64,000 nt of DNA from Bacteroidia bacterium (GTDB lineage: Bacteria > Bacteroidota > Bacteroidia > Cytophagales > Cyclobacteriaceae), in assembly GCA_030425425.1 (NCBI GenBank), contig JAUIAO010000027.1, positions 722 to 64,721 of the forward strand, written 5' to 3'. Each line of letters begins with the position of its first letter. Position 1 is the stretch's first letter. The notes beneath the pieces are model-generated. The model ran no database searches, was not told the origin of the DNA, and saw nothing but the letters and a program-made list of their open reading frames with translations. Made by a program: the position numbers and the translations under genes. Below are positions 15-3,845 of the stretch, piece by piece.

Positions 15-182
15 TCACCAAAAAGGCTCTAAATATCAACTTTTTACTCAAGATAAGCACCTCAGAGCACCAAAGTATCACCTAAAAGGCTCGGCACTGC
101 ACCTCTGAACTGGAAAGAAGGAGTAAAAAGGTGCAAACAAGCACCTCTGAAGTGGGTAGGGGTACTTCTGAAGTGGGTAGTT
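15..182. repeat. Degenerate 21-bp-period tandem array with imperfect palindromic cores (CACYTCWGARGTG-like)
   Basis: GCACCTC/GTACTTC at 57, 99, 141, 162 (spacings 42, 42, 21); ATCACCWAAAAGGCTC at 14 and 77 (spacing 63); CTGAAGTGGGTAG in units 7 and 8. Confidence 0.6.
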
Positions 183-192
183 GGATCAAATT

Positions 193-241
193 AAACCTTC
201 CAAAAGTTTTAGCGATGCGGACAATAACTTTTGGAAGGTTT
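193..241. repeat. REPIN-like element, family A, copy 1
   Basis: Perfect 16-bp inverted repeat AAACCTTCCAAAAGTT (193-208) / AACTTTTGGAAGGTTT (226-241) with a 17-nt spacer, ending 6 bp from the RAYT stop. Confidence 0.85.
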
Positions 242-247
242 GACTAC

Positions 248-853
248 TTAATAATCTATCAGTACAGACACATCATCAGGCAGTATTTCTGACTGATGGT
301 ATTTTTCAAATGCCTCTTTGCCACCAAGCCATGACAATACTTCCTCTCTCTGTAATCGGGTGCGTTTTATATTAAAAAATGCGTCATAAGAACTATATGG
401 CCACTCTTCGGGTCGATCTCGGAATCCATGATGAACAGGGTTTTGATGGATATAATTGATGACCGATTTTAAATAGTCTGGGTTATCAATTTCTTTTTTC
501 TTGAAGTTGGGGATGAAGAGGCTGCCACGGCGATTGTAGAGTTTGTTGTATGCCTGTGCGTAACTGCTAAATAGATTGGAAAATTGCTTGCTAACAACCT
601 TTTGGAAAGTTCCAAACTTTCCAAAAGGTAAATCTTCCGCAAACTTCAAATTCGAAGTAACATCCGTTGCAGTCTTCGTTTTTATAAGAAAATGAATATG
701 ATTAGGCATCAGGCAGTATGCATACGTATTCGCAACCGGCTCGATATATTTCGTCCATTTCTCCAAAAAGAAGTAATAATTCTTCTCTTCGCGAAAGAGG
801 TTTTCATCGCCATTGGCGTGATTGAAGACATGATAAAAGGTATCTGGCAGCAT
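248..853 (-). CDS. REP-associated tyrosine transposase (RAYT; IS200/Y1_Tnp HUH family)
   Basis: FYHVFNH N-terminus, YCLMPNHIHFL HUH motif, GSLF motif, YIHQNPV and W.YSSY C-terminal motifs; flanked by REP-like repeats. ATG at 853 preferred because the ORF-track start lies inside a hairpin. Confidence 0.9.
   Translation of the reverse strand: MLPDTFYHVFNHANGDENLFREEKNYYFFLEKWTKYIEPVANTYAYCLMPNHIHFLIKTKTATDVTSNLKFAEDLPFGKFGTFQKVVSKQFSNLFSSYAQAYNKLYNRRGSLFIPNFKKKEIDNPDYLKSVINYIHQNPVHHGFRDRPEEWPYSSYDAFFNIKRTRLQREEVLSWLGGKEAFEKYHQSEILPDDVSVLIDY
597..629. repeat. REP-like palindrome inside the RAYT coding sequence
   Basis: ACCTTTTGGAAAGTT-CCA-AACTTTCCAAAAGGT; each arm is 13/15 identical to the family-A arms; encodes LPFGKFGTFQKV in frame. 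Confidence 0.75.
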
Positions 854-871
854 GACAGTTAATTTTAATCC

Positions 872-895
872 CATCAAAAGTTACAACTTTTGATG
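872..895. repeat. Short-loop REP-like hairpin upstream of RAYT
   Basis: CATCAAAAGTT-AC-AACTTTTGATG, an 11-bp IR sharing the CAAAAGTT/AACTTTTG core of family A. Confidence 0.7.
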
Positions 896-947
896 AGCAC
901 TTTTTCCCTTTCTTCCTAACTTCAGGCGTTAATTCCTAAATACAGCA

Positions 948-1127
948 ATGGCAAACAGTAATCTACAAAAGGCGAAGAAGGCCAAGAACGATGAGTTCTA
1001 CACCCAATACCAAGACATAGAGAAAGAAATCAACGCCTAGCTGGACTATAACCCCGATGTATTCAAGGACAAAACCATCCTGCTGCCATGTGACGACCCG
1101 GAGTGGAGCAACTTCACCAAGTTTTAT
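948..1127 (+). pseudogene. 5' remnant of an EcoRI-family adenine methyltransferase
   Basis: Translates MANSNLQKAKKAKNDEFYTQYQDIEKEINA*LDYNPDVFKDKTILLPCDDPEWSNFTKFY, matching the M.EcoRI-type N-terminus (KAK..K.DEFYTQY.DIE ... CDDP..SNF.K.F); in-frame TAG at 1038-1040; truncated. Confidence 0.85.
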
Positions 1128-1158
1128 CCTTCACGGTATAAAATTTTAGACTTATAAT

Positions 1159-1899
1159 ATGAATACCGAAGAGTTAAATTCCCTTTTTCAATCAGGGCTG
1201 GCAAATGATTTATTCATGTCCCAAATCCATTATTTCGTTTTTCGTACTTTGGGAGAAAATCATGAAAGAATTAATACACTAGATGATAAAGAGCAAAAAC
1301 AACATTTGATTTATTTACAGTTTTCATCTCATGATTTATCAATTCAATATCTAGCCAGAGTGTTTGATAAAAGAATGAAATATGAGACTTCTTCATTGGC
1401 GTTGATTCTAGAAAAATGCCGAGAGATAAAACTGAAAGATTTCCTGTTAATCCTTGAGTATGAACATCTGAACAATGATCTGCAACCTTACCCTGCAATA
1501 AATCATTTGGAAGAAGTTTCGGGAATAAAAATTGGAGTAAAAGAAATCGGGAAGCCGGAGATATTATTTGATTGGATAAAATCAATTCTCGAGACTGAAA
1601 AGATTAATAATGCCATAATTCAGTTGAAAACTGTAAGAGATAAGTTTATAGCTCACAATGAATTGAATAGTGGAATAGAAGCTTTAGATGATTTTTGGTC
1701 TGGATATGCACTTTTAATAAAGATAGGTAGGTTAATGACCAGCCTTTTGAGTGAAATTTTCACTGATACAATATACGATCACTCAGTAACTATTCGTCCC
1801 GATGAAATTAATATGAATGTTTTGTTAGAAGTTAATTGGTTAATCGAGTATTTGGAGAAAATTCTTGGCAGAGATTCGGTAACTGCATGGTGGGAATAG
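1159..1899 (+). CDS. HEPN-domain protein (AbiU2-like), putative RNase or defence effector
   Basis: LARVFD...SL.LIL and RDKFIAH (Rx4-6H) motifs; helical character; AT-rich coding sequence. Confidence 0.65.
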   Translation: MNTEELNSLFQSGLANDLFMSQIHYFVFRTLGENHERINTLDDKEQKQHLIYLQFSSHDLSIQYLARVFDKRMKYETSSLALILEKCREIKLKDFLLILEYEHLNNDLQPYPAINHLEEVSGIKIGVKEIGKPEILFDWIKSILETEKINNAIIQLKTVRDKFIAHNELNSGIEALDDFWSGYALLIKIGRLMTSLLSEIFTDTIYDHSVTIRPDEINMNVLLEVNWLIEYLEKILGRDSVTAWWE

Positions 1900-1964
1900 T
1901 AACCTGAAGCTCTGCAAAACCCACAACCGGGCGAAAGGGAATAAGTAAGGAATTATTCTACAAG

Positions 1965-2011
1965 AACCTTCCAAAAGTTTTAGCGATGCGGACAGTAACT
2001 TTTGGAAGGTT
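1965..2011. repeat. REPIN-like element, family A, copy 2
   Basis: AACCTTCCAAAAGTT-TTAGCGATGCGGACAGT-AACTTTTGGAAGGTT; 46/47 identical to 194-240, same orientation. Confidence 0.85.
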
Positions 2012-2022
2012 GGAGGATTATC

Positions 2023-2087
2023 AAAAAAATATGAGCCGGTACCCTTCATCCGAAGGCCACCGACTAGCGGTCTTACAACCGCTGATA
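2023..2087 (-). ncRNA. Candidate ~60-nt two-hairpin small RNA
   Basis: Minus strand: TAGATTTG promoter (2088-2095), AGCGGT-tgtaag-ACCGCT hairpin, AGTCGGT-gg-CCTTC-ggat-GAAGG-gt-ACCGGCT hairpin, then a T7 tract. Confidence 0.45.
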
Positions 2088-2127
2088 CAAATCTACTAAT
2101 AATGAAGCCCCCATACCTTGCATCAGC

Positions 2128-2174
2128 AAACCTCCAAGGTTTCTTTCGTAGCGCAGTTTAAACCTTGGAGGTTT
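2128..2174. repeat. REPIN-like element, family B
   Basis: AAACCTCCAAGGTTT-17 nt-AAACCTTGGAGGTTT, a perfect 15-bp IR. Confidence 0.8.
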
Positions 2175-2380
2175 AGTTCAGCAAATTACAGCAACAGCAG
2201 ATTATCTTGGATCAGTTTTACACTAAAGAGGGGAATACTCCCATGGAAGAACCATTCCCCTGAAGTCTCGATTGACTGACACAAAAATACTGAAAATATG
2301 TGGGGAGAAATCCCCGCGTGTGCCTAGTGGGAATTAAACTTATGATCGTGCCAGGCATTTTATTTTTATCAAGCTTCAAA

Positions 2381-2445
2381 AACCTTCCGAAAGTTTTATC
2401 AAGACGGACAGTAACTTTTGGAAGGTTGATAAACCTTGGAGGTTT
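2381..2445. repeat. REPIN family A copy 3 plus a family-B half site
   Basis: AACCTTCCGAAAGTT-17 nt-AACTTTTGGAAGGTT (2381-2427), then AAACCTTGGAGGTTT (2431-2445). Confidence 0.8.
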
Positions 2446-2477
2446 TATTGATTAGCACTTTCCATACCTTTGATCCC

Positions 2478-3746
2478 ATGTTCCAGGACAATTCCCCATT
2501 AGCTGAGCGCATGCGCCCTACTACGCTTGATGATTTGATCGGTCAGGATCATTTAGTAGGTGACAAAGCCGTACTGAGAAGAACCATCTCTGCTGGCCGG
2601 GTGCCTTCTATGATTCTCTGGGGACCACCGGGAACTGGCAAGACTACCCTGGCAAACATTATCGCCAATCAGGTGAAAATGCCGTTTCACACCCTGAGTG
2701 CGATTAGCTCTGGCGTGAAAGAAGTCAGGGAAGTCATAGGAAACATCAGAGCTGGGAGCAAGGCTATTCTTTTTATAGATGAGATTCACAGGTTCAACAA
2801 AGGCCAGCAGGATGCACTACTTGGTGCCGTGGAGAAAGGTACTATCACACTCATAGGAGCGACTACAGAAAACCCAAGTTTTGAAGTCAACGCCGCATTG
2901 CTTTCGAGATGTCAGGTATATACGCTCAGGCATTTGGAGAAAGCGGATTTGAGGCAAATTGTGGATAAGGCGCTGGCTGAAGACCATGAGATGAAAAAGC
3001 TCAAGGTGGAGATTCAGGAAACTGAGGCATTATTCAATCTATCCGGTGGAGATGCCCGAAAGCTTCTCAATACGCTGGAATTGGTGATTAAAAGTCAGGA
3101 AGGTGAAGAAGTATTCATCACGGATGATCAGGTGATAGAAGTGGTACAGCGCAAGACGGTGCTGTATGATAAGAAAGGGGAGATGCATTATGACATCATT
3201 TCGGCATTTATCAAATCTATCCGAGGAAGCGACCCCAATGCAGCGGTTTATTATCTCGCCAGGATGATCGAAGGAGGCGAAGATGTGAAGTTCATCGCGC
3301 GGAGATTGGTGATTCTGGCATCAGAAGATATCGGGAATGCCAACCCCACAGCTCTGGTGATGGCCAATGCCACTTTCCAGTCTGTGAATGTAATCGGCTA
3401 TCCGGAATCGAGGATCATTTTATCACAATGTGTGACTTATCTGGCGAGCTCACCAAAAAGCAATGCCAGCTATATGGCGATCAATCAGGCACAGCGACTT
3501 GTACAGCAAACAGGTGACCTGCCCGTGCCGATGGCTGTAAGAAATGCTCCCACCAAGCTCATGAAAGATCAGGGTTATGGTCAAGGGTATAAATACGCTC
3601 ATGACTATCCTGGCAACTTTGCGGATATGGAGTTTCTACCGAAAGAGCTGGAAGGCAAAAAGCTTTATGATCCGGGTAAAAATCCACGCGAGGAGGAATT
3701 AAGAAAGTTTCTCAGAAATCGATGGAAAGAGAAGTATGGGTATTGA
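2478..3746 (+). CDS. rarA: Replication-associated recombination protein A (MgsA/RarA AAA+ ATPase)
   Basis: PLAERMRP start, GPPGTGKTT Walker [30 protein letters not shown]; the ORF-track start lies in a REP, so ATG 2478 is used. Confidence 0.95.
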
Positions 3747-3793
3747 TGCTTGATGTCTGATGTAGGATGATTGTTTAATTTGCATTTTATAAT

Positions 3794-3845
3794 TAACCCA
3801 ATAACCCAATAACCCAATAACCCAATAACCCAATAACCCAATAAC
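3794..3845. repeat. Octamer tandem repeat (TAACCCAA)6 + TAAC
   Basis: Six perfect units read directly in the rarA-hutI spacer; preceded by degenerate TGATGYN heptamers at 3744-3771. Confidence 0.95.

What the first reader, a model, noticed from the sequence alone, without database searches (positions are those of the whole stretch)
193..2445. REPIN-bracketed RAYT + HEPN cassette: a REP system possibly carrying a defence cargo
Seen: two 47-bp elements (194-240 and 1965-2011, 46/47 identical including the 17-nt spacer, same orientation) enclose the RAYT, a methylase remnant and a HEPN gene. Further doublets occur at 2128-2174 and 2381-2427. All four doublets have exactly 17-nt spacers and each arm is itself an imperfect hairpin. 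I saw no copies in the other ~61.5 kb. Established: RAYTs are HUH enzymes that act on REP hairpins, and REPINs are inverted REP doublets. RAYT genes are generally regarded as domesticated rather than self-mobilising. Inference: spacer-identical direct REPINs could define a ~1.8-kb unit that is mobilised or swapped by the RAYT, delivering a HEPN RNase. That would be a REP-based defence-cargo cassette.
Basis: partly seen in the sequence, partly recalled or inferred. Interest (0 to 1): 0.75.

Follow-up and report, generated by a model that had tools for sequence, protein, structure and literature searches.

The report
REP-flanked RAYT gene beside HEPN gene
This is a domesticated-transposase gene (RAYT) surrounded by its own small palindromic repeats, next to a decayed methylase and an intact HEPN abortive-infection-type gene. 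Nothing shows that the repeats move that gene as cargo.

Summary
Three 47-nt family-A doublets lie at 194-240, 1965-2011 and 2381-2427, one family-B doublet at 2128-2174, and a lone B arm at 2431-2445. They surround a RAYT-type HUH/Y1 gene, a dead EcoRI-family methylase stub and an intact HEPN_AbiU2-family gene, just upstream of rarA. No copy occurs in the other 61.5 kb.

This fits a known kind of locus, a 'REPtron': a tnpA-REP gene flanked by its cognate REPs, here in an uncultured Cytophagales-like bacterium. Homologous RAYT genes in other Bacteroidota have the same 47-nt doublet just after the stop codon and a palindrome before the start. They also carry an in-frame REP-like palindrome inside the gene. 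None carries a HEPN gene.

The HEPN gene is the strongest GC outlier in the window. Its relatives sit in defence islands without RAYT or REPs. Its left edge cuts a methylase gene, not a REP.

Eleven metagenome contigs show one context, with no empty site, second copy or deletion variant. I read the HEPN gene as an incidental neighbour from defence-gene turnover, and doublet A2 as a local copy of A1. RAYT-driven movement of the 1.8-kb unit is not excluded, but nothing I ran supports it.

The parts
194..240 (.). REP doublet A1 (15-nt arms, 17-nt spacer), 7 nt beyond the RAYT stop codon
   Evidence: ssDNA fold -13.2 kcal/mol, z -6.0. The same position relative to the RAYT stop is seen in L014 and L018.
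248..877 (-). RAYT / TnpA-REP-like HUH-Y1 gene. The likely true start is the ATG at 853, by comparison with homologues.
   Evidence: NCBIfam REP_Tyr_transpos E 7e-16. 2838 homologues, some named RayT by JGI. HUH (NHIH) and the Y of YIHQNP are invariant. The family profile hits E. coli TnpAREP 4ER8 at E 4.5e-5.
597..629 (.). In-frame REP-like palindrome inside the RAYT ORF (15+3+15, perfect), encoding PFGKFGTFQK
   Evidence: Its codons are identical in homologues of 52-75% identity while synonymous sites elsewhere differ.
872..895 (.). Palindrome CATCAAAAGTT-ACAA-CTTTTGATG, 19 nt upstream of the probable RAYT start. It shares its inner bases with the A arms.
   Evidence: z -6.8. Homologues also have a palindrome just upstream of the start (L014; L114 and L117).
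948..1157 (+). Dead N-terminal stub of an EcoRI-family adenine methyltransferase, with an in-frame TAG at codon 31. No C-terminal part is present.
   Evidence: Pfam EcoRI_methylase E 2.5e-22, profile positions 1-61 of 345. PADLOC MTase_II. No remainder in the window or L003.
1159..1899 (+). Intact 246-aa HEPN_AbiU2-family gene, GC 32.4%
   Evidence: 54 homologues, with R160 and H166 invariant (RDKxIAHNE). 36 of 39 family members hit Pfam HEPN_AbiU2. AF2 all-helical model, pLDDT 90.5. GC is lower than every 741-nt window of the rest.
1965..2011 (.). REP doublet A2, 46/47 identical to A1, same orientation, 65 nt after the HEPN stop
2128..2174 (.). REP doublet B1 (arms AAACCTCCAAGGTTT / AAACCTTGGAGGTTT)
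   Evidence: Identical arms occur in other Bacteroidota genomes and inside a RAYT homologue (L113).
2381..2427 (.). REP doublet A3 (41/47 identical to A1)
2431..2445 (.). Lone B arm, 3 nt after A3 and directly before the rarA start
2448..3746 (+). rarA/mgsA (context gene, not part of the element)
   Evidence: Pfam MgsA_C, AAA and others

Best explanation
The locus is a REPtron: one RAYT (TnpA-REP-type HUH/Y1) gene with its cognate REP elements clustered around it. The host is an uncultured Cytophagales-like bacterium from aquaculture and wastewater metagenomes.

The conserved core runs from about 194 to 895. It comprises a 47-nt hairpin doublet just after the stop codon, the RAYT gene with an in-frame REP-like palindrome, and a palindrome just before the start codon.

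The RAYT is inferred to bind and cut these hairpins on single-stranded DNA. It has copied the 47-nt unit a few times, but only locally (A1, A2, A3; B1 plus a lone B arm). No genome-wide REP population was seen.

The methylase stub and the HEPN_AbiU2 gene are what remains of defence-gene turnover at this spot. A methylase(-nuclease) module was truncated at about codon 70, and a horizontally acquired, low-GC abortive-infection-type HEPN gene now sits there. They lie between the RAYT core and the REP cluster upstream of rarA by juxtaposition. They are not RAYT-mobilised cargo.

Shown: the anatomy, the family assignments, the conservation of the core in homologues, the lack of other copies or contexts, and the GC outlier. 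Inferred: RAYT activity on these hairpins, local copying of the doublet, and the order of events.
For: - Anatomy and non-randomness.
- RAYT identity.
- Core conserved in homologues. A doublet follows the stop in L014 and L018. A palindrome precedes the start in L014, L114 and L117. The intragenic palindrome has frozen synonymous sites.
- The same arm sequences recur in 13 loci of diverse Bacteroidota genomes, about one per genome.
- Published description of REPtrons, of atypical non-GTAG REPs around Bacteroidetes tnpA-REP genes, and of in-frame REP insertions: PMC6006769. REPs concentrated next to tnpA-REP in Marinomonas, and no evidence of tnpA-REP mobility: PMC8266576.
- HEPN as an independent defence gene. 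Its homologues sit beside SIR2-HerA and an MmeI-type R-M system, and beside AbiH, with no RAYT or REP. AbiU2 is reported in R-M operons: PMC3710099.
- GC is 32.4% for HEPN, 38.3% for RAYT and a 40.0% mean elsewhere.
- The methylase stub aligns up to 4 nt before the HEPN ATG, and no remainder is present. Intact relatives of the stub are followed by the rest of the methylase and a GmrSD/HNH nuclease.
- One context only, at least 99.9% identical, in 11 contigs. Only the locus contig matches the doublets in four assemblies at 15-93x depth. No joints.
Against: - A1 and A2 are nearly identical, direct in orientation, and bracket a Y1-enzyme gene plus a passenger. That is formally the IS200/IS605 layout.
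- RAYT homologues lie at different loci in different genomes, three of eight next to defence genes (HEPN here, a KAP NTPase, cas9/cas1). Movement into such regions therefore did occur at some time.
- The genome-wide REP count rests on assembled contigs and an 85% likeness threshold that includes the spacer. Copies with other spacers, or lone arms, would be missed.
- No close relative was available: the best rarA match is 78% at the protein level, with no synteny. The ancestral empty site is therefore unknown.
- RAYT activity on these hairpins is untested.
Confidence: 0.7

Rival explanations
1. The segment from A1 to A2 (about 1.8 kb: RAYT, methylase stub, HEPN) is an IS200/IS605-like unit. The RAYT excises and reinserts it as single-stranded DNA through the two hairpins, delivering or swapping a HEPN defence gene.
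For: - A1 and A2 are direct 46/47-identical hairpin elements whose similarity ends exactly at their borders.
- The RAYT keeps its HUH and Y residues.
- REPtrons and IS200/IS605 share the 'gene bordered by palindromes' layout (PMC8266576).
- RAYT homologues sit at varied loci, some in defence contexts.
- Tandem RAYT units vary in copy number between samples.
Against: - Only one context in 11 contigs from several studies, and no deletion or circle joints.
- No second copy in four deep assemblies.
- 0 of 8 RAYT-homologue loci carry a HEPN gene, and 0 of 3 HEPN-homologue loci carry a RAYT or REPs.
- Homologues have their 5' palindrome directly at the RAYT start, as does this gene (872-895). The conserved unit therefore excludes the passenger.
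- HEPN GC differs strongly from RAYT GC.
- The passenger's left edge is a broken methylase gene, not a REP.
Confidence: 0.08
2. The doublets act mainly as regulatory or structural hairpins. They could be RAYT operator sites, transcript-end stabilisers, or insulators between the cassette and rarA. In that case their clustering reflects function at this locus, not transposition.
For: - Strong hairpins lie exactly at gene ends: 7 nt after the RAYT stop, 65 nt after the HEPN stop, and directly before rarA.
- Palindromes at the RAYT start and inside the ORF are kept by selection on the DNA or RNA.
- Several doublets in other genomes are followed by T-rich runs.
- REPs are reported to serve in termination and mRNA stability (PMC3733652 abstract).
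Against: - The 47-nt unit was copied precisely, spacer included, which points to replication of an element.
- The consensus terminator scan did not flag the doublets, whose 17-nt loops exceed its 3-8-nt loop limit. I see no T-run after the four window doublets.
- This does not exclude the REPtron reading, because both can be true.
Confidence: 0.12
3. RAYT and HEPN form one functional two-gene system, for example an HUH DNA nuclease paired with a HEPN RNase as a defence or toxin-antitoxin-like pair.
For: - They are adjacent and bracketed by the same repeats.
- Some RAYT homologues sit next to defence genes.
Against: - The two genes are divergently oriented, with a dead methylase stub between them.
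- They do not co-occur in any homologue locus examined.
- Their GC content differs.
- No PADLOC model hits the HEPN family.
Confidence: 0.03

Closest known systems
REPtron (tnpA-REP/RAYT gene flanked by cognate REP/BIME sequences; Ton-Hoang 2012, Quentin 2018 PMC6006769, Corneloup 2021 PMC8266576)
   Same: - A RAYT-type HUH/Y1 gene, the only one seen in the 64-kb window, with REP hairpins on both sides.
- More than one REP subfamily at the locus.
- REPs concentrated near the gene, as in the Marinomonas REPtrons.
[quoted passage not shown]
- No GT[AG]G foot and 'atypical secondary structures', as described for the Bacteroidetes subclass 2.6.
   Different: - No dispersed REP population was detected: all 4.5 doublets lie within 2.3 kb.
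- Two unrelated genes (a methylase stub and a HEPN gene) lie between the RAYT and part of its REP cluster.
- The protein has F-I where the published subclasses have WQ, so I could not assign a subclass.
REPINs of Pseudomonas and Enterobacteria (Bertels and Rainey 2011)
   Same: Two inverted REP arms separated by a spacer form one hairpin. The element is copied as a unit, spacer included, and lies next to a RAYT.
   Different: REPINs are defined by populations of tens to hundreds of dispersed copies and a GTAG-type motif. Here there are 3 A copies and 1.5 B copies, all local, with no GTAG foot. The A arm does not fold on its own.
IS200/IS605 insertion sequences (IS608, ISDra2)
   Same: A Y1 HUH enzyme gene plus a passenger gene lie between two similar hairpins in direct orientation.
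   Different: The enzyme is the RAYT type (YIHQNP, about 200 aa), not TnpA-IS200 (Y...Q, about 150 aa). Only one copy and one context were found. The conserved 5' palindrome lies inside the proposed unit, directly at the RAYT start.
AbiU2-family HEPN abortive-infection proteins (Anantharaman 2013, PMC3710099)
   Same: Invariant R-x5-H motif in an all-helical protein of about 240 aa. Relatives lie in defence islands and next to R-M genes. Here it lies next to a methylase remnant.
   Different: The window protein itself scores below the Pfam threshold (E 0.015). No solved structure matched. No PADLOC model hits. Function is untested.

Membership tests
RAYT / TnpA-REP (HUH Y1) | HUH motif | tested here: met
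   NHIH at residues 59-62. H60 and H62 are invariant in 31 homologues.
RAYT / TnpA-REP (HUH Y1) | Catalytic Tyr in a YIxxNP motif with a C-terminal extension | tested here: met
   YIHQNPVHHGF, with Y142 invariant. It aligns to YIYINPVKHGW of E. coli TnpAREP 4ER8, E 4.5e-5 with the family profile.
RAYT / TnpA-REP (HUH Y1) | Curated profile match above threshold | tested here: inconclusive
   NCBIfam REP_Tyr_transpos E 7e-16 but 58 bits against a cutoff of 80. Pfam Y1_Tnp 20.5 bits against 23. JGI names several homologues RayT.
RAYT / TnpA-REP (HUH Y1) | Gene flanked by its cognate REP sequences | tested here: met
   The same holds in homologue loci L014, L018, L114 and L117.
RAYT / TnpA-REP (HUH Y1) | Cleaves and rejoins single-stranded REP DNA | not testable with these tools
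   Needs purified protein and oligonucleotide substrates.
REPIN | Two inverted REPs with a spacer, forming one hairpin and copied as a unit | tested here: met
   A1 and A2 are 46/47 identical, and similarity ends at the 47-nt borders.
REPIN | Dispersed population of many copies in the genome | tested here: not met
   None in the other 61.5 kb or in 7.6 kb upstream. In four whole assemblies at 15-93x depth, only the locus contig matches at 85% or more. Caveat: these are contigs only, and the spacer is included in the query.
REPIN | GT[AG]G tetranucleotide at the foot of each REP | tested here: not met
   The arms start AACC or AAAC and no GTAG or GTGG flanks them. This is consistent with the atypical Bacteroidetes REPs in PMC6006769.
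IS200/IS605-type transposon | Multiple copies or different insertion contexts | tested here: not met
   One context in 11 contigs. No second copy. No joints.
IS200/IS605-type transposon | TnpA-IS200-type enzyme (Y...Q motif, about 150 aa) | tested here: not met
   The Y motif is YIHQNP and the length is about 201-209 aa.
HEPN superfamily, AbiU2 family | Conserved R-x4-6-H motif | tested here: met
   R160 and H166 are the only invariant columns in 39 sequences. The motif is RDKxIAHNE.
HEPN superfamily, AbiU2 family | Match to the Pfam HEPN_AbiU2 profile | tested here: inconclusive
   The window protein scores E 0.015, 15.2 bits against a cutoff of 26.8. However, 36 of 39 aligned homologues match at E 0.01 or better, best 1.5e-17.
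HEPN superfamily, AbiU2 family | HEPN four-helix fold | tested here: inconclusive
   The AF2 model is all-helical with pLDDT 90.5. Foldseek against the PDB gave no match below E 1.
HEPN superfamily, AbiU2 family | RNase or abortive-infection activity | not testable with these tools
   Needs expression, toxicity and phage assays.

The most novel reading that the evidence does not exclude
The A1-A2 bracket is a live RAYT-driven composite element: a REPtron that still moves as a unit through its two hairpin doublets and can pick up or exchange defence genes. The HEPN gene here, and the KAP NTPase and cas-operon neighbours of homologues, would be examples. It would be a missing link between IS200/IS605 transposons and domesticated RAYTs.
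Probability: 0.07. Interest if true: 0.75.

Novelty: new member of a known kind. Interest (0 to 1): 0.33.

Why it matters
That would contradict the current view that tnpA-REP genes are immobile and domesticated. The evidence does not support it.

What remains is a clean, compact Bacteroidota REPtron with very few, purely local REP copies and atypical 47-nt hairpin doublets. It also has a DNA-level-conserved palindrome inside the enzyme's own gene. That makes it a useful small model for asking what these enzymes recognise and how REP copies first spread. It does not open a new category.

Tried and rejected
- K-mer homologue search with the HEPN ORF found only itself. The exhaustive search was needed.
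- The single-sequence AF2 model was useless, pLDDT 40.
- Foldseek against the PDB with the good model gave no significant hit.
- PADLOC gave no hit for the HEPN family.
- tblastn of the HEPN protein against plasmids and phages gave no match.
- The empty-site comparison failed. The 80 best rarA relatives in metagenomes reach at most 78% identity, and none shares synteny or has a RAYT, HEPN or methylase gene nearby.
- The GTDB scan with the degenerate doublet pattern did not recover this organism's genome, so no direct genome-wide count was possible.
- Rfam on the 11-kb locus gave nothing near threshold.
- No tRNA lies near the locus.
- A search for a C-terminal methylase remnant in the window and in L003 found none.
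- The consensus terminator scan did not flag the doublets.
- I considered a CRISPR-like or riboswitch nature for the repeats and rejected it on anatomy: perfect palindromes, no spacer diversity pattern, and no Rfam hit.
Full report
**1. Observation**

- Family A doublets (AACCTTCCAAAAGTT-N17-AACTTTTGGAAGGTT) lie at 194-240, 1965-2011 and 2381-2427.
- A family B doublet (AAACCTCCAAGGTTT-N17-AAACCTTGGAGGTTT) lies at 2128-2174.
- A1 and A2 differ at one spacer base. A3 differs at six positions.
- With up to two mismatches the A arm occurs 8 times in 64 kb (0.35 expected) and the B arm 3 times (0.21 expected). All occurrences lie in the first 2.5 kb.
- A generic scan for 15-mers of this hairpin type finds 10 in the first 2.5 kb and 1 in the other 61.5 kb. 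The background in 658 kb of unrelated loci is about one per 26 kb.
- No other short-loop inverted repeats of this kind exist in the window.

As single-stranded DNA each doublet folds into one 15-bp stem with a 17-nt loop (-13 to -14 kcal/mol, z about -5 to -6). The A arm alone does not fold, and the B arm folds weakly.

**2. The genes**

*RAYT.* The minus-strand ORF 248-877 probably starts at 853, by comparison with homologues.
- It matches NCBIfam REP_Tyr_transpos at E 7e-16, below the curated cutoff.
- It has 2838 homologues, mostly from Cytophagales. JGI names several 'REP element-mobilizing transposase RayT'.
- It keeps an invariant HUH (NHIH) and the Tyr of YIHQNP.
- The family profile matches E. 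coli TnpAREP (4ER8) over the Tyr-motif half.

*Methylase stub.* Positions 948-1157 encode the first ~69 residues of an EcoRI-family methyltransferase, with an in-frame TAG at codon 31. No remainder occurs anywhere in the window or upstream.

*HEPN gene.* The 246-aa ORF 1159-1899 has no close relatives.
- An exhaustive search found 54 homologues, the best at 39% identity.
- R160 and H166 (RDKxIAHNE, an R-x5-H HEPN motif) are the only invariant columns.
- 36 of 39 family members match Pfam HEPN_AbiU2.
- The alignment-based AF2 model is confident and all-helical. It has no significant PDB neighbour.

**3. Where else the locus occurs**

The exact HEPN and rarA proteins are found on 11 contigs from aquaculture-biofloc, wastewater and aquatic metagenomes. 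All are at least 99.9% identical and show the same arrangement. None has an empty site.

A longer contig (L003) extends 7.6 kb upstream and has no more doublets.

I laid the whole contig sets of four runs on each doublet, at 15-93x depth for this organism. Only the locus contig matched. Laying four runs on 1-2700 gave no deletion or circle joints.

Limits: these are assembled contigs, which drop rare variants. The 85% threshold includes the spacer, so copies with other spacers would be missed.

**4. The same elements in other genomes**

I scanned one genome per GTDB species with a degenerate pattern covering both arm families at 17-nt spacing. It found 13 loci in diverse Bacteroidota, mostly one per genome. 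By my own estimate the pattern carries about 50 bits, so chance matches are negligible.

RAYT-homologue loci show a recurring layout:
- In L018 (52% identical) the doublet lies about 95 nt after the RAYT stop. In L014 (39% identical) it lies about 8 nt after the stop, close to the 7-nt position seen here.
- L014 also has REP-like palindromes directly upstream of the start.
- L114 and L117 have a palindrome 20-45 nt upstream of the start.

The conserved unit is therefore palindrome, RAYT, then doublet, which corresponds to about 194-895 in the window. A2 lies outside it.

**5. Intragenic palindrome**

In the homologues from L012, L018, L114 and L117 the loop after the HUH strand is encoded by a perfect palindrome. 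A codon alignment of the window, L012 and L018 genes shows CCT TTT GGA AAG TTy nnn ACT TTC CAA AAG identical in all three. Synonymous sites elsewhere differ freely. Selection or conversion therefore acts on the DNA or RNA.

Other homologues encode TLQGFETLGG or NLQGFQNLEG at this place. That is the translation of B-type arms. In L113 the intragenic arms are identical to the window's B arms.

[quoted passage not shown] Atypical, non-GTAG hairpins are described around Bacteroidetes subclass 2.6 genes (PMC6006769).

**6. Is the HEPN gene cargo?**

Evidence against:
- Its relatives lie beside SIR2-HerA, an MmeI-type R-M system and a helicase (L030), and beside AbiH (L031). Neither locus has a RAYT or REP-like hairpins.
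- None of eight RAYT-homologue loci has a HEPN gene. Their neighbours are housekeeping genes in L012, L014 and L018.
- HEPN GC is 32.4%, lower than every 741-nt window of the other 61.5 kb (mean 40.0, sd 2.8). RAYT GC is 38.3%.
- The methylase stub aligns to intact relatives right up to 4 nt before the HEPN ATG. Those relatives continue with the rest of the methylase and a GmrSD/HNH nuclease. The left edge of the HEPN insertion is thus a broken defence gene, not a REP.

AbiU2-type HEPN genes are known to sit in R-M operons (PMC3710099).

**7. What speaks for some mobility**

- RAYT homologues occupy different loci. Three of eight are next to defence genes: HEPN here, a KAP NTPase in L113, and between cas9 and cas1-cas2 in L117.
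- In one species the RAYT unit forms a tandem array whose copy number differs between samples.
- The layout of A1, genes, then A2 is formally IS200/IS605-like.

It is equally expected if RAYT units were mobile in the past and defence islets tolerate insertions.

**8. Comparison with relatives at the rarA locus**

The 80 best rarA relatives in metagenome contigs reach only 78% protein identity. They share no synteny and have no RAYT, HEPN or methylase gene nearby.

**9. Verdict**

This is a REPtron of a Bacteroidota RAYT subfamily, with few and purely local REP copies. It is lodged in a small region of defence-gene turnover upstream of rarA. The published view is that REPtrons do not move as units, and that REPs concentrated near the gene indicate recent arrival and local multiplication (PMC8266576). 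The data here fit that view.

The cargo-cassette inference is not supported. It is also not strictly refuted, because raw reads and close relatives were unavailable.

Noticed in passing
window 597-629 (also L012 10225-10257, L018 ~990-1025, L114 4225-4257, L117 4232-4262): The RAYT ORF carries a perfect in-frame REP-like palindrome. Its codons are identical across homologues of 52-75% identity while other synonymous sites differ, so the DNA or RNA hairpin itself is conserved. This is described for TnpA-REP subclass 2.4 in PMC6006769.
   Followed up: yes
L117 1-7225: A RAYT homologue (61% identical) sits between cas9 and cas1-cas2 of a complete type II CRISPR-Cas locus with a 17-repeat array of 47-nt repeats. 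It has a palindrome in the cas9-RAYT spacer. The same arrangement appears in an NCBI MAG and in a Logan contig.
   Followed up: partly
L114 vs L115 (2385-4722): The RAYT gene forms a tandem array of copies 94-96% alike, two units in one sample and three in another. The paralogues carry different intragenic palindromes (A-like versus B-like).
   Followed up: partly
L113 744-3550: A RAYT homologue (73% identical) starts 12 nt after a KAP-family NTPase gene. Its intragenic palindrome arms are identical to the window's B arms.
   Followed up: partly
window 948-1157; L119 5001-6139; L125, L126: N-terminal EcoRI-methylase stubs of 59-104 aa, 75-90% identical to the window remnant, are very common in metagenomes (612 hits). 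Where context was seen, they are split genes followed by the remainder and a GmrSD_N/HNH nuclease. In L119 the split is at an A-run, which suggests frameshift-prone or phase-variable methylases.
   Followed up: partly
window 55-180 (L003 7440-7636): About five degenerate copies of a GCACCTCTGAAGTGGGTAG-like motif, itself a small imperfect palindrome followed by GGTAG, abut doublet A1. This may be a third repeat family of the locus.
   Followed up: no
window ~3790-3845: An (AATAACCC)n microsatellite of about six units lies in the spacer between rarA and the imidazolonepropionase-like gene.
   Followed up: no
L003 2600-6700 (upstream of the window start): About 4 kb has only short ORFs without Pfam hits, GC 35-40%, no tRNA and no Rfam match. 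The low-GC, low-coding region extends about 10 kb upstream of rarA.
   Followed up: partly
L015, L019, L021; L023, L024: The 17-nt loops of doublets from different MAGs are similar to each other (for example ACGACGAATA, or ATTAATCCGCGGAT in either orientation). The loop as well as the arms is therefore conserved between genomes.
   Followed up: no
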